A stretch of DNA of 64,000 nt from a virus. Location of the stretch: positions 256 to 64,255 of IMG/VR virus record IMGVR_UViG_3300021185_003494; one strand, written 5' to 3'. The position numbers and the translations under genes are program-made. Shown here piece by piece: positions 41,669-57,044 of this stretch. The notes below the pieces were generated by a model, which saw only the letters and a program-made list of their open reading frames with translations, was not told the DNA's origin and did no database searches. Numbering within the stretch: position 1 is the stretch's first letter; each line of letters starts with the position of its first letter.

Positions 41669-41676
41669 CATAAATA
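41669..41676 (+). promoter_or_regulatory. Late-type promoter CATAAATA heading the enzyme island
   Basis: Same motif as before putative structural genes. Confidence 0.55.
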
Positions 41677-41771
41677 AGAGTGTTACTGCCTGATCGGCGC
41701 TAGTTCTAGCTAGTATTTCACATTTGGCTTTATGGGGCCACATCTACCATATGATCCTTTAAGGGAATGTG

Positions 41772-43655
41772 ATGAAAAAAATTTACTTTACACAGATTAA
41801 TAATATTATTGCAGATGCGACCTTTTTGCCGTTATCGGTTGCTTATCTGTGGGAGTATTGTAAAACACAAAAAGATATTATAAAAAATTGGGAATTGGGT
41901 GGTATTATTTTTGAAAGAGATACTACTGAAAACTATGTAGAACAAATACAAGATCCTGATATAGTTGCAATTAGTACGTATGTTTGGAATTGGCAAGCAA
42001 GTCAAGAACTAGCAAAACAAATTAAGCAAAAATATCCAGACTGCAAAGTTGTAATGGGCGGCCCACAAGTGCCTTACAAAAAGCAATGGTTAGAGGAAAA
42101 TACAGATATATGTGATATAATTATTACATATGCTGGAGAAAGAACTTTTGCTGAAATACTTAGAAATAATTTAGATACGCCTGGTATTTTAAGTTTAGAT
42201 CATGATTATAAAGCCCCTAAACCAGACAAATATATAGATGATATTCCAAGTCCTTATCTTAGTGGACTTATGGATAGCCTTATGCAAAAAGGCAAAAAAT
42301 ATAGTGCTATTATAGAAACAAATAGAGGTTGCCCATACCAATGTACATTTTGTGACCAAGAGGCACTCTACTATAATAAAATAGCAAAGTTTGAAGAAAA
42401 AAGAGTTCTAAAGGAAATAGACTGGGTATCAAAGAAGAAAATTGACTTTCTTTATTTTGCAGATAGTAACCTAGGTATTTTTGAACGTGACTTAAAAATT
42501 ATGAAAAGAGTTGCTAAAAATAAAGTAAAAACAGGATATCCTAGAAATATTGACTACGCTACAGCAAAACAGTCACCAGAGAGAGTTACAGAACTAGGTA
42601 AAATTCTTAATCAGGAAGCAGGTATTAGTAGAGGGATGACTATTGCTTTACAAAGTATGAACCCAGATACATTGGCTGCAATTAAACGTGTTAATGCAGC
42701 AAATGACAAATTAAAAGAAACTATAGACGACTTTCATAAAAATGGTGTTGATAATTACTGTGAGCTTATATTAGGACTACCTAACGAATCTTTTGATAGT
42801 TGGATAAATGGTATTGCACAAATTTTAGACATAGGAAGTGATCATGCATTACAAATGCATCCACTTAGCATTGTACCCAATACTCCTTTTATGCAAGACG
42901 ACTATAAAAACTTATATGGATTAAAATATACTGCAACACCTGCACCTGCAGGAGGCAATACTTATCCAGAAGATAGCAACAACGAGATAGATTACATTTG
43001 TTATTCAAGTAATACTATGACAGAGGAAGAATGGATAGATTGTTACTTCTTTACCAAAGGCATTGTTATCCCACATCATTATCATGGATTCAGCCAAGTT
43101 ATTGCAACTTATTTAAACAGAGAGCTCAATGTTCCTCTTATAGAATATTATAAATTTTTGTTTGAGTGGAGCAAAATAAGTAGTGGTGCATTACATAAAG
43201 AATATGTTGTTCATACTGACAGTGTAAAGGATAGTTTATTTAAAAATAAACCATGGGGCAGGCCAGTTTACAAATCACAAGATAACTTCCATATGCAAGA
43301 TAATGGAGCAACTGCATCTTGGCTATATACAAATATAGATGAAATTTATAAAGAATTAAAAATGATTGTAAGTGCTAGGTGGGATCTGGATATTACTGAA
43401 TTGCTAGAGTACAATAAGCATATATTAGATAGATACAATAGATCAACAGACAGTAGAACATTTACTAAAAATTATACTAATTGGTTTTTGAAAAATGATC
43501 CTTTACAAGACGTAGAAAGTGAAGTTACTGTAAAAATAAAAAACTATAAGGACATCTTGGATCATGCAAAACATTTATTTTGGTATGGTAGAAAAGCAAA
43601 AAGATGCTTCTTAGAAACAAATGAAAGGGTAATAGAATATGATCAGGATAGCTGA
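41772..43655 (+). CDS. Cobalamin-binding radical SAM enzyme 1
   Basis: LPLSVAYL, PDIVAISTYVWN, VVMGGPQ, ETNRGCPYQCTFC, FADSNLG, ELILGLPNE. Confidence 0.92.
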   Translation: MKKIYFTQINNIIADATFLPLSVAYLWEYCKTQKDIIKNWELGGIIFERDTTENYVEQIQDPDIVAISTYVWNWQASQELAKQIKQKYPDCKVVMGGPQVPYKKQWLEENTDICDIIITYAGERTFAEILRNNLDTPGILSLDHDYKAPKPDKYIDDIPSPYLSGLMDSLMQKGKKYSAIIETNRGCPYQCTFCDQEALYYNKIAKFEEKRVLKEIDWVSKKKIDFLYFADSNLGIFERDLKIMKRVAKNKVKTGYPRNIDYATAKQSPERVTELGKILNQEAGISRGMTIALQSMNPDTLAAIKRVNAANDKLKETIDDFHKNGVDNYCELILGLPNESFDSWINGIAQILDIGSDHALQMHPLSIVPNTPFMQDDYKNLYGLKYTATPAPAGGNTYPEDSNNEIDYICYSSNTMTEEEWIDCYFFTKGIVIPHHYHGFSQVIATYLNRELNVPLIEYYKFLFEWSKISSGALHKEYVVHTDSVKDSLFKNKPWGRPVYKSQDNFHMQDNGATASWLYTNIDEIYKELKMIVSARWDLDITELLEYNKHILDRYNRSTDSRTFTKNYTNWFLKNDPLQDVESEVTVKIKNYKDILDHAKHLFWYGRKAKRCFLETNERVIEYDQDS

Positions 43656-54547: not shown

Positions 54548-55510
54548 ATGTACAACCAAATAGATATAATAGAATTTGATATAAACACAACATGTAATGC
54601 CTTTTGCCCGTCATGTGCAAGGCATGTGGTATATGATAACGAACTTATGCGAAATCCATTTGTAAAATTTAATGAAAGTCTGCCCAAAGAGATTATAGAA
54701 AAGGTTATGCAATGTGAACTATTGTCTGAAGATGTGGGAATAGACTTTGTAGGATTATTGGGAGAACCAGTAGCACACAATGATATACTTGAAATAATAG
54801 ACATAGTATTTCATTACAGACCTAATGCATTTATAAATTTACACACAAACGGAGGTCTTAGGACTAAAAATTTCTTTAAAGAATTAGCTAGTAAATTCCC
54901 CAAGCACAATGAAAGCATTGTGAAGTTCAGTATAGATGGTCTAAAAGATACCAATCATCTGTATAGGCGTGGAGTCATATGGGAAAAAGTTATGGAAAAT
55001 ATTAAAACATTTGTGGATGCAGGAGGCAAAGCACAGTGGAAATATATAATTTTTCCTTGGAATGAGCACCAGGTGCAAGAAGCCAAACAACTTAGTAAAG
55101 AAATAGGACTATCAAAATTTAAAACAACAACAGATAGGTCTCCAAAAGATACTGCTAAATATATTAAAGCAGCAGATGTAAACTATAGCACCAAGCAACC
55201 TATTATGGAAGTGCAAAATGTTTACTCAACCATACAACGAAAAATTAACGATAGATGCTTTAGTAGAAAAAGTATATATGTTAATGTAAGTGGACACGTA
55301 GTTCCGTGTTGTATGATAAATGGCGGGCTTGTAGATTCTAGATTTTTGGAAGAAACAAAAAATTTTATATACAATGAACAGTACAATTGGAATAATCTAG
55401 AAAACTACTCTTTAGCAGATATAATGAATAATAGTTGGTGGCAATCATTATATCAAAGTTTCAGTGACCAACCTTGTACTGTATGTAATTTTTCGTGTGG
55501 AGTAAATTAA
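54548..55510 (+). CDS. Radical SAM protein with SPASM/twitch domain
   Basis: CNAFCPSC, LLGEP, HTNGG, FSIDG, VVPCCM, CTVCNFSC. Confidence 0.9.
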   Translation: MYNQIDIIEFDINTTCNAFCPSCARHVVYDNELMRNPFVKFNESLPKEIIEKVMQCELLSEDVGIDFVGLLGEPVAHNDILEIIDIVFHYRPNAFINLHTNGGLRTKNFFKELASKFPKHNESIVKFSIDGLKDTNHLYRRGVIWEKVMENIKTFVDAGGKAQWKYIIFPWNEHQVQEAKQLSKEIGLSKFKTTTDRSPKDTAKYIKAADVNYSTKQPIMEVQNVYSTIQRKINDRCFSRKSIYVNVSGHVVPCCMINGGLVDSRFLEETKNFIYNEQYNWNNLENYSLADIMNNSWWQSLYQSFSDQPCTVCNFSCGVN

Positions 55511-56277
55511 TGGCGATTATAAAAGAAAAAGTGTTAAAAGTAGAACACTATACGGACAGACTTTTCCGTATTATCACTACTAGAGATCCTGGTATTAGAT
55601 TCAGAGATGGTGAATTTTTAATGATAGGAATAATGGTAGATGGTAAGCCTCTACTGCGAGCATATAGTGTTGCAAGTCCTAGTCATCAGGATACCTTGGA
55701 GTTCTTTAGTATTAAGGTACAAGATGGACCATTAACAAGTAGATTACAACACATAAAACCAGGAGATGAGTTACTTGTGAATAGCAAAGCAGTTGGTACT
55801 TTGGTATGTGACAATTTAAAGCCTGGACGTACTTTATATCTAATGGGTACTGGAACAGGAGTTGCTCCTTTTTTAAGTGTTGCACGTGGATTAGAAGCAT
55901 ATGATATGTATGAGAAAATTGTTTTACTATGGGGAGCAAGAACTGTTGCAGAATTGCCTTTTGTAGAATATTGGGACCAACTTAATGAAGATGAAACATA
56001 TGGTGAATTAACACAAGATAAGTTTTTATTTTATCCAACTGTTACAAGAGAGGATTTTAGAAATACTGGCAGAATAACTGATGCTATGTATGAAGGAAAA
56101 GTACAAAAAGTATTAGGACTAGAATCTTTTGATAAAGAACATGATAGAGTTATGATTTGTGGATCCCAAGAAATGAATATGGAATTGCGTAAATATTTCA
56201 TAGAAGAAGTAGGATGTACTGAAGGCAATGCAAATCATCGAGGTGAATTTGTTTTAGAAAAGGCATTTGTAGATTAA
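55510..56277 (+). CDS. fpr: Ferredoxin-NADP+ reductase
   Basis: RAYSVAS, GPLTSRL, GTGTGVAPF, VTRE, MICGS, E..F.D C-terminus. Confidence 0.92.
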   Translation: MAIIKEKVLKVEHYTDRLFRIITTRDPGIRFRDGEFLMIGIMVDGKPLLRAYSVASPSHQDTLEFFSIKVQDGPLTSRLQHIKPGDELLVNSKAVGTLVCDNLKPGRTLYLMGTGTGVAPFLSVARGLEAYDMYEKIVLLWGARTVAELPFVEYWDQLNEDETYGELTQDKFLFYPTVTREDFRNTGRITDAMYEGKVQKVLGLESFDKEHDRVMICGSQEMNMELRKYFIEEVGCTEGNANHRGEFVLEKAFVD

Positions 56278-57044
56278 TGAAATACGGCGAAGCATTTGTT
56301 GCACACAAAGATGAAATAATAAAAAATTTTAGTCCTGCGAAAGTATTAGAGAATGTTTTGACAGAAGAACAAGTAAAACAAATTTTACTTTTTGCATTTC
56401 AAAATACTAATAATTTAAAGTGGACTGCTACTAGTAGTAATTTACAACCCACTGTGCATATAACAGAATTAATGAAAAATTTTCCTTGGTTAACAGAAAT
56501 AATACAACAAGAAATAGGCGACTTTTATGAAAGAGAACATAGCGGCAATTATTTTATTACTACACAGCTACATGATGCTCATGCTGATTTAATTACAAAA
56601 GAAGAAACAAACGAGGACTGGACAGATGGAATTATTCCTTACAAAAGTTGTGTAATACCTCTAATTATATCTGCACGTGCAGTAGCTCATACTGCCTTTT
56701 TTCATCAACGTCATATTGGATTTAGTATTACACTGGATAGAGAAAATATAAGTTCGCAAGATGACAGCATGTATGAAATTTCCAGAGAGTATCCAGACTT
56801 CCATATGGTTGATGGTAGTATTAGTAAATTTAAAGGAATACAAAACCATCCTGATTATATATTTCCGCACATACCAAAAGAAAATAATAGAGGTTTAAGT
56901 ATTGAAAACGTATTTGAATTTAAACCAGGAAACATAATGGTATTTGATGCTTGTCAGATACATGCAAGTTGTGTACCTATTGACAGACCCAATTTTCGTT
57001 GGTTAAAAAGTGGTATTAATATACAGTTTTATAAGAAGATATAA
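56277..57044 (+). CDS. 2OG-Fe(II) oxygenase-like protein
   Basis: HDAHAD, FKPGNIMVFD, IHAS. Confidence 0.6.
   Translation: MKYGEAFVAHKDEIIKNFSPAKVLENVLTEEQVKQILLFAFQNTNNLKWTATSSNLQPTVHITELMKNFPWLTEIIQQEIGDFYEREHSGNYFITTQLHDAHADLITKEETNEDWTDGIIPYKSCVIPLIISARAVAHTAFFHQRHIGFSITLDRENISSQDDSMYEISREYPDFHMVDGSISKFKGIQNHPDYIFPHIPKENNRGLSIENVFEFKPGNIMVFDACQIHASCVPIDRPNFRWLKSGINIQFYKKI

What the first reader, a model, noticed from the sequence alone, without database searches (positions are those of the whole stretch)
41669..57044. Phage-encoded 15-kb biosynthetic-like enzyme island built around two B12-dependent radical SAM enzymes
Seen: one co-directional run of ten genes (41772-51389) behind a late-type promoter. 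It contains a B12-radical SAM, a Prx-like protein, three 2OG-Fe(II) oxygenases, a second B12-radical SAM, an ACP-like/methyltransferase, a fourth oxygenase and a betaine-type binding protein plus permease. Next come an ATP-grasp, a hydrolase, a GNAT, an SDR, a SPASM radical SAM, Fpr and another oxygenase. Established: B12-binding radical SAM enzymes perform C- or P-methylation or ring chemistry and need a low-potential reductant (Fpr/flavodoxin). ATP-grasp, GNAT, SDR and hydroxylases are typical tailoring enzymes. Radical SAM enzymes also act in known phage DNA hypermodification. Inference: this is a coordinated pathway (substrate import, activation, methylation, hydroxylation, acylation, electron supply) that makes a small molecule or modifies phage DNA, tRNA or virion/surface polymers late in infection. 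I know of no characterised phage pathway with this composition.
Basis: partly seen in the sequence, partly recalled or inferred. Interest (0 to 1): 0.85.

Follow-up and report, generated by a model that had tools for sequence, protein, structure and literature searches.

The report
Phage radical-SAM tailoring pathway shared with predators
An uncultured giant marine phage carries an uncharacterised set of about 12-15 chemistry genes, probably transcribed, that also occurs as a unit in SAR11-type phages and in predatory Halobacteriovorax-like bacteria; the phage copies carry nutrient importers where the bacterial copies carry precursor-making genes, and the product is unknown.

Summary
The window is a fragment of a jumbo T4-superfamily marine phage. 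Positions 41769-57044 encode two TokK/CysS-like B12-radical SAM enzymes, a cysteine-less peroxiredoxin-fold protein, at least four Fe/2OG-type oxygenases, a SAM methyltransferase, a DmpX-like binding protein with permease, an ATP-grasp-like protein, a hydrolase, a GNAT-fold protein, a SPASM radical SAM and an Fpr-type reductase. The island really starts near 37.3 kb, where three more radical-SAM and oxygenase genes lie.

The core (rSAM1, Prx-like, three oxygenases, rSAM2, methyltransferase, fourth oxygenase, ATP-grasp) co-occurs in order in about 27-34 of 34 phage loci from two phage lineages. It also occurs in 6 of 6 loci of Halobacteriovorax-like bacteria. The bacterial loci add 2-oxoacid-elongation genes that no phage locus has. 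The phage loci add importers that no bacterial locus has (TctA in 28, the betaine-type system in 2).

The binding protein, permease, SDR-like gene, Fpr and last oxygenase occur only in the closest relative. The late promoter and the ACP-like domain are not supported.

My best reading is an orphan small-molecule tailoring pathway fed by import. Decoration of a glycan, fibre or protein remains possible. Other windows of this scan have noted related phage/Bdellovibrio-type islands.

The parts
37345..37740 (-). 131-aa protein of unknown function at the upstream edge of the island
   Evidence: No family hit. Found only in the closest relative L093, at 70% identity.
37725..38282 (-). 2OG-Fe(II) oxygenase-like protein (185 aa)
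   Evidence: Pfam 2OG-FeII_Oxy_3, E 4e-5, 24.8 bits, just under the cut-off of 27. L093 has a 50% identical copy.
38272..39360 (-). Twitch/SPASM-type radical SAM enzyme (N_Twi_rSAM family)
   Evidence: NCBIfam NF033640, 203 bits against a cut-off of 170. Pfam Radical_SAM. Orthologues of 24-27% identity in 6 of 6 bacterial loci.
39690..40496 (-). Asp/Asn beta-hydroxylase-type oxygenase (268 aa)
   Evidence: Pfam PF05118, E 2e-14, 54 bits against a cut-off of 22.6.
40603..41536 (-). Small radical SAM enzyme split into two overlapping ORFs: the core at 40886-41536 and a SPASM tail at 40603-40899
   Evidence: Pfam Radical_SAM E 1e-9. SPASM E 2e-6. The same split occurs in L004 and L010. TATAAATA lies 5 nt before the ATG at 41536.
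41769..43655 (+). B12-radical SAM 1 (A), a TokK/CysS/KedN5-like class B methylase
   Evidence: Pfam B12-binding + Radical_SAM. KedN5 family 199 bits, under the cut-off of 700. PDB TokK E 2e-67 and CysS E 4e-47. Present in 28 of 34 phage loci and 6 of 6 bacterial loci.
43639..44208 (+). Peroxiredoxin-fold protein without the peroxidatic cysteine (B); predicted partner of oxygenase C
   Evidence: Pfam Redoxin 47 bits. Tyr replaces the Cys in all 8 aligned orthologues, phage and bacterial. Complex model with C: score 0.61 against a best control of 0.00.
44150..44803 (+). Fe(II)/2OG dioxygenase-fold protein C
   Evidence: Model pLDDT 83. Top fold matches are EasH, AndA, PhyH and AlkB. H108, D110 and H168 are invariant.
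44800..45444 (+). Asp/Asn-hydroxylase-like cupin D, the most conserved core gene
   Evidence: Atlas neighbours carry PF05118. H129, D131 and H181 are invariant. Present in 34 of 34 phage loci and 6 of 6 bacterial loci, at 51-58% identity to the bacterial copies.
45444..45989 (+). Fe(II)/2OG dioxygenase-like protein E, a paralogue of C
   Evidence: hhalign to C: probability 97%, E 2e-10. H86, D88 and H135 are invariant.
45907..47643 (+). B12-radical SAM 2 (F). The start is uncertain: TTG at 45907 or ATG at 45982.
   Evidence: Pfam B12-binding + Radical_SAM. KedN5 family 169 bits. It has its own bacterial orthologue at 40% identity, closer than its 34% to A.
47644..47879 (+). 236-nt non-coding gap with the palindrome AGTTTATC-T-GATAAACT at 47687-47703. 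Relatives carry a 250-400-aa gene here.
   Evidence: Sequence. Gene maps of relatives. Contigs of the RNA runs break at 47694-47696. No Rfam match.
47880..48797 (+). Class I SAM methyltransferase G with an N-terminal extension of about 110 aa and unknown function
   Evidence: Pfam Methyltransf_23, 33.8 bits against a cut-off of 27. 49-52% identical to bacterial orthologues, which always directly follow the A orthologue.
48787..49455 (+). Asp/Asn-hydroxylase-like cupin H, found in phages only
   Evidence: Atlas neighbours carry PF05118. HxD...H motif. Present in 27 of 34 phage loci and 0 of 6 bacterial loci.
49516..50493 (+). Periplasmic betaine/sulfonium-type binding protein, DmpX-like, with a signal peptide
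   Evidence: Pfam OpuAC E 4e-38. PDB 7yle (DmpX) E 1e-48. W35, E113, W152 and W202 are kept, but W84 is Ile (PMC10030565). Found only in the window and L093.
50496..51389 (+). ABC permease of the ProW/ChoW type; no ATPase in the record
   Evidence: NCBIfam choline permease E 3e-71 and ProW E 6e-67, both under their cut-offs. No ABC_tran match above the cut-off in the 64.7-kb record.
51376..52698 (-). ATP-grasp-like ligase I, convergent on the transporter genes
   Evidence: Atlas neighbours carry ATP-grasp_4 or ATP-grasp_3. Present in 27 of 34 phage loci and 6 of 6 bacterial loci. It sits just beyond the transporter genes in the phage gene maps shown.
52695..53552 (-). Alpha/beta-hydrolase J (dienelactone-hydrolase-like)
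   Evidence: 23-32% identical to bacterial genes with Pfam DLH. GCSLG motif. Present in 9 of 34 phage loci and 5 of 6 bacterial loci.
53374..53967 (+). GNAT-fold protein K. The true start is probably downstream of 53374.
   Evidence: Model pLDDT 77. At least 50 GNAT structures match with probability 1.0. Present in 6 of 6 bacterial loci, directly after the methyltransferase in L006 and L009.
53942..54505 (-). SDR-like Rossmann protein (187 aa); peripheral and not verified
   Evidence: YxxxK motif only. Weak YdfG hit, E 0.038. Found only in the window and L093. TATAAATA lies 5 nt before its ATG.
54548..55510 (+). Radical SAM + SPASM enzyme, a paralogue of 40886-41536
   Evidence: Pfam Radical_SAM + SPASM. 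28% identical to 40886-41536. The family is present in 29-33 of 34 phage loci.
55495..56277 (+). Fpr-type ferredoxin/flavodoxin-NADP reductase; overlaps the preceding radical SAM gene by 16 nt
   Evidence: Pfam FAD_binding_6 + NAD_binding_1. NCBIfam Fpr E 6e-37, under the cut-off. Found only in the window and L093.
56277..57044 (+). 255-aa protein with an HxD...H motif (possible oxygenase); peripheral and not verified
   Evidence: No family hit. Motif by eye. Found only in the window and L093.

Best explanation
PROPOSAL. The island is one mobile, multi-enzyme tailoring pathway for a carboxylate-bearing small metabolite.

SHOWN:
- A core of about 12 genes travels together: two B12-radical SAM methylases, a Cys-less Prx-fold protein, oxygenases C, D, E and H, a SAM methyltransferase, an ATP-grasp-like ligase and small SPASM radical SAM enzymes. 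A hydrolase, a GNAT and an N_Twi radical SAM are often present too.
- The core occurs in two phage lineages and in Halobacteriovorax-like bacteria.
- The bacterial version also encodes a homocitrate/isopropylmalate-synthase-like enzyme, a two-subunit aconitase-type isomerase, a PrpD-type dehydratase and an aminotransferase. These would build a di- or tricarboxylic precursor.
- The phage versions lack those genes and carry importers instead: TctA, often with a TonB-dependent receptor, or here a DmpX-like binding protein plus permease.

INFERRED:
- The phage imports the scaffold, or takes it from the host, instead of making it.
- The 2OG oxygenases hydroxylate the scaffold. Oxygenase C is predicted to work as a complex with the Prx-fold protein.
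- The methyltransferase methylates a hydroxyl or amine group.
- The TokK/CysS-like enzymes then add methyl groups one after another at unactivated carbons, building ethyl, isopropyl or alkoxy groups as CysQ/CysS and KedN1/KedN5 do.
- The ATP-grasp ligase, GNAT and hydrolase couple, acylate or release the product.
- In this phage, Fpr helps re-reduce the radical SAM clusters through a host flavodoxin or ferredoxin.

UNKNOWN. The product and its use during infection are not known.
For: CO-OCCURRENCE AND ORDER. Counts are phage loci out of 34, then bacterial loci out of 6:
- A 28 and 6; B 29 and 6; C 29 and 6; D 34 and 6; F 28 and 6; G 29 and 6; I 27 and 6.

COMPLEMENTARY GENE SETS:
- HMGL-like, both aconitase subunits and PrpD: 0 of 34 phage loci, 6 of 6 bacterial loci.
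- TctA 28 and the SBP/permease 2 of 34 phage loci; 0 of 6 bacterial loci.
- A TonB-receptor Plug protein sits next to TctA in 16 phage loci.

BACTERIAL SIDE:
- The bacterial loci have housekeeping neighbours.
- The EF-Tu of L009 is 89-90% identical to the EF-Tu of Halobacteriovoraceae MAGs.
- The HMGL-like and aconitase genes match the homocitrate/isopropylmalate families.
- The A orthologue is directly followed by the methyltransferase in all six bacterial loci.

TRANSFER BETWEEN PHAGE LINEAGES:
- Module proteins are 62-74% identical between the window and a HTVC008M-like phage.
- The two terminases are only 34-35% identical.

ENZYME ASSIGNMENTS AND EXPRESSION:
- rSAM1 is nearest to TokK and CysS and to the KedN5 family.
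- The B-C complex scores 0.61 against a best control of 0.00. That mark was reached by 58 of 80 solved complexes and 2 of 110 mismatched pairs. The runs agree in at least 75% of contacts, and the partner's pLDDT is 84-87.
- The DNA is near-identical in six metatranscriptome runs.
- Per-contig depth there is uneven, for example 38x over 47694-50659 against 4-9x over 41603-46108 in run X16.
Against: - No step has been tested and no product is known.
- The bacterial precursor genes lack a visible dehydrogenase, so the scaffold cannot be named.
- The window's importer is betaine/sulfonium-type while most relatives carry a tricarboxylate-type TctA. This is awkward if both feed the same pathway. The importers may be independent auxiliary genes sitting in a hot spot.
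- Phage loci were read only to +-10 kb. Most records are fragments, so absence of the precursor genes is not proven.
- In HTVC008M-like genomes the module lies beside tail-fibre genes, and 19 of 34 phage loci carry an extra aminotransferase (phrog_3139) that I take to be of the sugar (DegT) type. Both points fit a glycan or fibre target.
- The ATP-grasp call rests on language-model neighbours only.
- The RNA evidence comes from assembled contigs of metatranscriptome libraries, which can contain DNA.
Confidence: 0.45

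Rival explanations
1. The module builds or decorates a glycan or another surface polymer. 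The target could be the phage's tail fibres or virion, or the infected cell's envelope, and in the predators their own or their prey's surface. The enzymes would then act on a sugar-linked intermediate.
For: - In a complete HTVC008M-like genome the module lies 0.7-5.8 kb from tail-fibre and baseplate genes.
- Pelagibacter phage Mosig has an analogous island next to its tail fibres, annotated with an ArnB-type aminotransferase, a carbamoyltransferase, a GNAT and methylases.
- An aminotransferase (phrog_3139), which I take to be of the sugar (DegT) type, is in 19 of 34 phage loci, and a NodU-like carbamoyltransferase is in 16.
- A nucleotide-sugar GNAT is among the fold matches of K.
- Pelagimyophage 'host recognition clusters' are reported to hold radical SAM cassettes (PMC7029224).
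- B12-radical SAM enzymes are known to C-methylate sugars such as in gentamicin (GenK); this is from my own knowledge.
Against: - No glycosyltransferase was seen in the window's island. No nucleotidyltransferase, sugar dehydratase or flippase appeared in the Pfam lists of the bacterial loci either.
- The bacterial loci carry organic-acid elongation genes, not sugar-activation genes.
- The window's island is not next to fibre genes within the 64 kb available.
- The fibre-adjacent region of T4-like marine phages is a general insertion hot spot, so position alone is weak evidence.
Confidence: 0.22
2. The enzymes modify a protein or peptide after translation. This would resemble proteusin/polytheonamide maturation, or the radical SAM maturation of a virion protein.
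For: - The enzyme classes mirror polytheonamide maturation: two B12-radical SAM C-methylases, a SAM methyltransferase, an Fe/2OG hydroxylase and further radical SAM enzymes (my own knowledge of PoyB, PoyC, PoyE, PoyI and PoyD).
- Characterised Asp/Asn beta-hydroxylase-family enzymes act on protein side chains, and SPASM/twitch radical SAM enzymes often act on peptides (my own knowledge; families called).
- Other windows of this scan report radical SAM cassettes built around tailed proteins in giant phages and Bdellovibrio-like bacteria.
Against: - No conserved small or leader-bearing ORF was found in the module among ORFs of 60 aa or more.
- No CHxS-type tail occurs in any of the 40 loci scanned.
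- No protease, lanthionine synthetase or YcaO-type enzyme was seen.
- The bacterial loci carry 2-oxoacid elongation and aminotransferase genes, which point to a free metabolite.
- ORFs under 60 aa were not compared systematically.
Confidence: 0.13
3. The enzymes hypermodify phage DNA or tRNA.
For: - Phage DNA hypermodification pathways are known to use radical SAM and 2OG enzymes (my own knowledge).
- A QueC-like PP-loop gene lies in some related loci.
- Twelve tRNA genes lie in or beside the island.
Against: - The TGT-like and QueD-like genes have no Pfam support at E 0.05 or better.
- They are absent from all 37 related loci compared.
- No nucleic-acid-binding, glycosylase, kinase or transferase domain lies in the core.
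- The bacterial clusters sit with organic-acid metabolism genes.
Confidence: 0.06
4. The region is only a mosaic of unrelated auxiliary genes collected in a hypervariable part of the genome.
For: - The periphery behaves this way. The binding protein, permease, SDR-like gene, Fpr, the 255-aa protein and the M42 peptidase occur only in the window and at most one relative.
- Gene content around the core varies between loci.
- The E-F pair is missing from the closest relative L093.
Against: - The core keeps its membership and order across 27-34 phage loci of two lineages and across six bacterial loci.
- Many neighbouring genes overlap.
- Two adjacent core products are predicted to bind each other.
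Confidence: 0.05

Closest known systems
TokK/ThnK (carbapenem side-chain) and CysS/KedN5 (alkoxy-building) cobalamin-dependent radical SAM methylases
   Same: - Same architecture: an N-terminal B12-binding domain, a radical SAM core with CxxxCxxC and a long C-terminal domain.
- TokK (7kdx, E 2e-67) and CysS (9n1b, E 4e-47) are the only solved relatives found.
- KedN5 is the best NCBIfam family for both paralogues.
- As with CysQ/CysS and KedN1/KedN5, a SAM methyltransferase gene sits next to the radical SAM gene in the bacterial loci.
   Different: - Scores of 199 and 169 bits are far below the KedN5 cut-off of 700.
- No beta-lactam, NRPS or enediyne genes are nearby.
- The setting is phages and predatory bacteria.
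- Substrate and number of methylations are unknown.
Fibre-adjacent hypervariable 'host recognition cluster' of pelagimyophages (Zaragoza-Solas et al. 2020, PMC7029224) and the tandem 2OG-oxygenase regions of T4-like cyanophages
   Same: - That paper notes radical SAM cassettes, transport genes and Asp/Asn beta-hydroxylases in marine SAR11 myophages.
- The module found here lies in HTVC008M-like genomes next to tail-fibre genes.
   Different: - The paper does not define this gene set, its bacterial counterpart or its chemistry.
- The window's copy is in a jumbo PA5oct-like phage and is not beside fibre genes within the window.
- The isolates HTVC008M and Mosig lack the B12-radical SAM core; Mosig has only D (41% identity) and the small radical SAM enzyme.
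DmpXWV, the DMSP-specific ABC importer of Roseobacters and SAR11 (Li et al. 2023, PMC10030565; PDB 7yle)
   Same: - The binding protein aligns over its full length with DmpX (E 1e-48).
- Three of the four cage tryptophans and Glu113 are kept.
- The permease is of the ProW/ChoW type.
   Different: - Trp84 is Ile, Tyr200 is Phe, Thr64 is Ser and Ala153 is Gly.
- No ATPase gene is present.
- The closest homologue outside the two near-identical proteins on phage-like contigs is at most 39% identical, so the ligand is uncertain.
Polytheonamide/proteusin maturation (PoyB, PoyC, PoyD, PoyE, PoyI)
   Same: The mix of enzyme classes is the same: two B12-radical SAM methylases, other radical SAM enzymes, a SAM methyltransferase and an Fe/2OG hydroxylase.
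   Different: No precursor peptide, leader-recognition protein or protease was found. The bacterial clusters encode small-molecule precursor enzymes.
Organic-acid 'TCA-like' precursor modules of phosphonate antibiotic pathways (phosphinothricin Pms/Pmi with PhpK; FR-900098 FrbA-C)
   Same: The bacterial version pairs a homocitrate-synthase-like enzyme and an aconitase-type isomerase with an aminotransferase and B12-radical SAM enzymes. The comparison with the phosphonate pathways is from my own knowledge.
   Different: No PEP mutase or other phosphonate marker appears in the Pfam lists of the six bacterial loci. The phage version lacks this module altogether.

Membership tests
Class B (cobalamin-dependent) radical SAM methylases, TokK/CysS/KedN5 branch | N-terminal B12-binding domain followed by a radical SAM core with CxxxCxxC | tested here: met
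   PF02310 and PF04055 score above their cut-offs in both proteins. The motifs NRGCPYQCTFC and NRGCPYSCSFC are in the translations.
Class B (cobalamin-dependent) radical SAM methylases, TokK/CysS/KedN5 branch | Score above the curated KedN5-family cut-off (700 bits) | tested here: not met
   199 and 169 bits. They are relatives of that family, not members.
Class B (cobalamin-dependent) radical SAM methylases, TokK/CysS/KedN5 branch | Cobalamin binding and methyl transfer to an unactivated carbon | not testable with these tools
   This needs reconstituted enzyme and a substrate.
Fe(II)/2-oxoglutarate dioxygenase superfamily (proteins C, D, E, H) | Double-stranded beta-helix fold | tested here: met
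   Tested for C only. The model has pLDDT 83, and the top 50 PDB matches are nearly all named Fe/2OG oxygenases, the rest being oxygenase-like or unnamed entries. E is homologous to C. D and H rest on Atlas neighbours only.
Fe(II)/2-oxoglutarate dioxygenase superfamily (proteins C, D, E, H) | HxD/E...H metal triad conserved across orthologues | tested here: met
   The triad is invariant in C (H108, D110, H168), D (H129, D131, H181) and E (H86, D88, H135). In H it was seen by eye only.
Fe(II)/2-oxoglutarate dioxygenase superfamily (proteins C, D, E, H) | Pfam family score above the gathering cut-off | tested here: not met
   C, E and H have no hit. D scores E 0.11 for PF05118. Only 39690-40496 passes.
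Peroxiredoxin (Prx5/Redoxin type) | Thioredoxin-like Redoxin domain | tested here: met
   PF08534, 47.4 bits against a cut-off of 26.6. PHROG peroxiredoxin E 9e-32.
Peroxiredoxin (Prx5/Redoxin type) | Peroxidatic cysteine in the PxxxT/SxxC motif | tested here: not met
   The motif reads PG(S/P/I)F(I/L/V)(V/S)(E/D)Y, with Tyr48 invariant in all 8 aligned phage and bacterial orthologues. It is not a peroxidase by the usual mechanism.
DmpXWV-type DMSP ABC importer | Binding protein homologous to DmpX with all eight published ligand-contact residues | tested here: not met
   Homology is clear (E 1e-48). Only W35, E113, W152 and W202 are identical. T64 is Ser, A153 is Gly, Y200 is Phe and W84 is Ile (residues from PMC10030565).
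DmpXWV-type DMSP ABC importer | Cognate ABC ATPase encoded with the binding protein and permease | tested here: not met
   No PF00005 match above the cut-off in the 64.7-kb record. The record is an estimated 18% of the genome.
GNAT acyltransferases (protein K) | GNAT fold | tested here: met
   Model pLDDT 77. The best 50 PDB matches are all GNAT-family proteins with probability 1.0 and TM about 0.5.
GNAT acyltransferases (protein K) | Acyl-CoA binding and acyl transfer | not testable with these tools
   An invariant R-G-x-A segment exists, but Pfam finds no acetyltransferase family.
RiPP / proteusin-type maturation systems | Precursor peptide or substrate protein gene inside the cluster | tested here: inconclusive
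   No conserved extra ORF of 60 aa or more and no Cys/His-tailed ORF. Shorter ORFs were not compared.
Phage DNA hypermodification systems | Co-conserved DNA-acting enzyme (DpdA/TGT, hydroxymethyl-base kinase, glycosylase-like transferase) | tested here: not met
   The TGT-like ORF 59855-61360 has no Pfam hit, and none of the 37 related loci carries it.

The most novel reading that the evidence does not exclude
Two kinds of agents that attack marine Gram-negative bacteria, phages of two unrelated myophage lineages and Halobacteriovorax-like predators, share one mobile pathway. It makes a so far unknown, repeatedly C-methylated and hydroxylated metabolite that is used during the attack. The viral copies carry out 'semi-synthesis': they drop the precursor-building genes and bring their own outer- and inner-membrane importers to feed the pathway. 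One oxygenase in it has recruited a dead peroxiredoxin as a subunit.
Probability: 0.3. Interest if true: 0.9.

Novelty: new variant of a known kind. Interest (0 to 1): 0.78.

Why it matters
- Phage auxiliary genes are usually single enzymes that boost host metabolism. A conserved pathway of a dozen or more genes with five radical SAM enzymes, two of them B12-dependent, would be among the most elaborate chemistry known from a virus.
- The DNA is near-identical in many seawater metagenome runs and is present in metatranscriptome libraries.
- Sharing with predatory bacteria, and the clean swap of precursor genes for importers, give a concrete handle on what the pathway consumes. They suggest a role in attacking or reprogramming marine bacteria.
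- The pathway also ties viral infection to cobalamin, iron and possibly DMSP/betaine supply in the ocean.
- It offers new TokK/CysS-like methylases and a peroxiredoxin-oxygenase pair for enzymology.

Tried and rejected
SEARCHES THAT GAVE LITTLE:
- Megablast of the island against isolate phages found nothing. tblastn of rSAM1 found one distant gut-phage hit.
- Profile searches of C, D, E, the methyltransferase and the ATP-grasp against PDB sequences were uninformative.
- hhalign did not link D to C or to the Pfam-positive hydroxylase at 39690-40496.
- The genome-contig scan with the rSAM1 alignment returned only distant B12-radical SAM genes (33% identity or less) from many phyla. It missed the close bacterial loci.
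- Relatives cannot be drawn for a virus record.
- Cluster look-up gave no organism names. The taxon of the bacterial loci was inferred from EF-Tu instead.

IDEAS TESTED AND DROPPED:
- The (Cys-His-x-Ser) tail reported elsewhere in the scan is absent from all 40 loci.
- Rfam shows only tRNAs in 36000-58500, with no riboswitch before the methyltransferase. The 196-nt leader folds only slightly better than shuffles (z -2.2).
- RNA-run contigs end at 47694-47696 in four runs. I do not read this as a transcript start, because a perfect palindrome centred at 47695 would break assemblies.
- The T4 late motif TATAAATA is not enriched and is absent before 41769.
- No paper describing this gene set was found.

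Full report
WHAT THE WINDOW IS. The window is nearly all of a 64.7-kb IMG/VR virus record that CheckV rates 18% complete. It encodes a large terminase, a gp32-like SSB, UvsX, helicases and NrdAB. The terminase is 57% identical to that of the jumbo Pseudomonas phage PA5oct and 46-50% identical to those of Atu_ph07, Phosso and CBB. It is therefore a fragment of a marine jumbo phage of the T4 superfamily, with 34% G+C.

CHECK OF THE OBSERVATION: PFAM CALLS. The ten-gene co-directional run 41769-51389 is real, and most neighbours overlap or abut. The following score above Pfam's own cut-offs:
- two B12-binding radical SAM enzymes
- a Redoxin-fold protein
- a Methyltransf_23 enzyme
- an OpuAC binding protein
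- an ABC permease
- a radical SAM/SPASM enzyme
- an FNR-type reductase

CHECK OF THE OBSERVATION: PROTEINS WITHOUT A FAMILY HIT. I tested these in other ways.
- Protein C (44150-44803) folds with pLDDT 83 into a double-stranded beta-helix. Its best PDB matches are almost all Fe/2OG oxygenases.
- E is homologous to C (hhalign probability 97%).
- D and H have neighbours that carry Asp_Arg_Hydrox.
- The HxD...H triad is invariant in the alignments of C, D and E.
- K (53374-53967) has a GNAT fold.
- The 440-aa protein has ATP-grasp neighbours.
- The 285-aa protein is related to DLH-type hydrolases of the bacterial loci.

CHECK OF THE OBSERVATION: WHAT REMAINS UNVERIFIED.
- The SDR-like gene and the 255-aa 'oxygenase' rest on motifs only.
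- The 'ACP-like' part of the methyltransferase has no support.
- The late-type promoter is doubtful. No exact TATAAATA precedes 41769, and the motif is rarer than in shuffles.
- The island also extends upstream. A minus-strand block at 37345-41536, interleaved with tRNA genes, adds a 2OG oxygenase, an N_Twi radical SAM, an Asp/Asn hydroxylase and a split radical SAM/SPASM pair.

IS IT ONE PATHWAY? rSAM1 has more than 1,300 homologues in metagenomes, about 80 of them 57-87% identical. Gene neighbourhoods of long contigs show the same order each time: rSAM1, Prx-like, C, D, E, rSAM2, sometimes an extra gene, methyltransferase, H.
- A scan of viral contigs with the D alignment gave 29 more loci.
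- Over 34 phage loci the core genes are each present in 27-34, in a conserved order.
- By contrast, the binding protein, permease, SDR-like gene, Fpr and the 255-aa protein occur only in the window and its closest relative L093.

TWO PHAGE LINEAGES. The module lies in jumbo phages whose terminase is 53% identical to the window's. It also lies in complete 166-171-kb genomes whose terminase is 34-35% identical to the window's and 71% identical to that of Pelagibacter phage HTVC008M. Module proteins are 62-74% identical between these lineages. That is far closer than the terminases, so the module has moved between lineages.
- In the HTVC008M-like genome it sits beside tail-fibre genes.
- This is the hypervariable region where Zaragoza-Solas et al. 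noted radical SAM cassettes (PMC7029224).
- Isolates lack the core. Mosig has only D (41%) and a small radical SAM enzyme, within an analogous island.

THE BACTERIAL COUNTERPART. Homologues of rSAM1 at 36-41% identity lie on long contigs with housekeeping genes. Six such loci carry orthologues of nearly the whole core.
- Present in all six are both B12-radical SAM paralogues, B, C, D, G, I, K and the N_Twi radical SAM. E and the small radical SAM are in four, J in five, and a carbamoyltransferase in three.
- The EF-Tu of one locus is 89-90% identical to the EF-Tu of Halobacteriovoraceae and Bacteriovoracaceae MAGs. A second locus appears to lie on a contig holding a similar EF-Tu, judged by its matching length of 364,373 bases. 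The carriers are therefore predatory Bdellovibrionota.
- All six bacterial loci add a homocitrate/isopropylmalate-synthase-like gene, both subunits of an aconitase-type isomerase and a PrpD-type gene. Five also add an aminotransferase. None of the 34 phage loci has any of these.
- Conversely, 28 phage loci have TctA, 25 have an unnamed gene that follows TctA, 16 have a TonB-receptor Plug protein and 2 have the binding protein plus permease. No bacterial locus has any of these.
- In the phage gene maps I drew, the transporter sits at the same place, with the convergent ATP-grasp gene just beyond it.

MECHANISTIC CLUES.
- rSAM1's only solved relatives are TokK and CysS, which add several methyl groups in succession. 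KedN5 is the best family but scores far under its cut-off.
- In all six bacterial loci the methyltransferase directly follows the rSAM1 orthologue. This recalls the CysQ/CysS and KedN1/KedN5 pairs, in which an O-methyl group is extended by radical methylation. That comparison is an inference from my own knowledge.
- The Prx-fold protein has Tyr where the peroxidatic Cys should be in every orthologue, which confirms a first-stage note.
- A complex model of the Prx-fold protein with oxygenase C scored 0.61, with a best control of 0.00. That mark was reached by 58 of 80 solved complexes and 2 of 110 mismatched pairs. The runs agree in at least 75% of contacts and the partner's pLDDT is 84-87. The interface uses the former active-site loop, residues 45-58.
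- The binding protein is a DmpX homologue (7yle, E 1e-48) that keeps three of four cage tryptophans but has Ile for Trp84 (PMC10030565).
- Beyond its two close phage relatives, the most similar homologues of the binding protein are at most 39% identical.
- No ABC ATPase or flavodoxin is in the record.

EXPRESSION. The island DNA is near-identical in at least 15 seawater DNA runs and in six metatranscriptome runs.
- Contigs of three RNA runs cover every bin of 37300-57200.
- Per-contig depth is uneven. It is highest over the tRNAs and over 47694-50659, which spans the methyltransferase, H and the binding protein.
- This fits transcription better than DNA carry-over.
- These are assembled contigs, so starts, strands and levels are not established.

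VERDICT. The core is a genuine, mobile, apparently undescribed pathway. Its enzyme families are known, but its product is not. I favour a small-molecule product made from an imported or host-derived carboxylate scaffold (0.45). The alternatives are glycan or fibre decoration (0.22), protein or peptide modification (0.13), nucleic-acid modification (0.06) and a mere mosaic (0.05). Other windows of this scan reported related phage/Bdellovibrio-type islands. I used these as leads only.

Noticed in passing
window 40603-41536 (-): A radical SAM core (40886-41536) and its SPASM tail (40603-40899) are separate ORFs that overlap by 14 nt. The same two-ORF split occurs in relatives L004 and L010. It looks like a conserved split gene or a programmed frameshift rather than decay.
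   Followed up: partly
window 39509-39678, 40528-40602, 41590-41663: Four plus-strand tRNA genes (Ser-ACT, Glu, Gln, Trp) are interleaved between the minus-strand island genes. In RNA runs X16, X17 and X18 the 39292-39955 bin was the deepest or among the deepest bins.
   Followed up: partly
window 957-964, 41542-41549 (-), 54511-54518 (-): An exact TATAAATA sits 5 nt before the ATG of the terminase, of the small radical SAM gene (start 41536) and of the SDR-like gene (start 54505). This fits another first-stage note on leaderless late messages. The motif as a whole is not enriched (7 found, 14.4 expected).
   Followed up: partly
window 47644-47879: A 236-nt gap lies where relatives carry a 250-400-aa gene. 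It holds a perfect palindrome, AGTTTATC-T-GATAAACT (47687-47703). RNA-run contigs break there, and depth is higher downstream. No Rfam family matches, and the fold z-score is -2.2.
   Followed up: partly
window 36343-37368 (+): A full-length M42 glutamyl aminopeptidase (Pfam E 1e-82) is encoded by the phage, next to the tRNA array. None of the related loci has it.
   Followed up: no
That reading needs its own check.
   Followed up: partly
L097:15559-17199 and 15 other phage loci: HTVC008M-like phage contigs encode a 546-aa TonB-dependent receptor (Plug domain, E 5e-17) directly before TctA. This amounts to a phage-borne outer-membrane plus inner-membrane uptake pair.
   Followed up: partly
L093 compared with window 45444-47643: The closest relative (70-90% identical genes) lacks E and rSAM2 together and carries its N_Twi radical SAM between H and the binding protein. 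The small-oxygenase plus B12-radical SAM pair therefore behaves as a sub-unit that is gained or lost whole.
   Followed up: partly
L114-L118 and L121 (jumbo-phage loci): These loci keep the methyltransferase, H, D, TctA, ATP-grasp, hydrolase and GNAT but have no B12-radical SAM within 10 kb. The pathway may exist in a version without radical methylation.
   Followed up: no
L124 (Pelagibacter phage Mosig, MT647606.1 51361-69891): The cultured SAR11 phage Mosig carries an island of about 15 kb next to its tail fibres. It is annotated with three MoaA-like radical SAM genes, nitroreductase-domain proteins, a carbamoyltransferase, two aminotransferases, a peroxiredoxin, TauD, a GNAT, a desaturase and two Asp/Asn hydroxylases. 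It could serve as an experimental model for this kind of island.
   Followed up: partly
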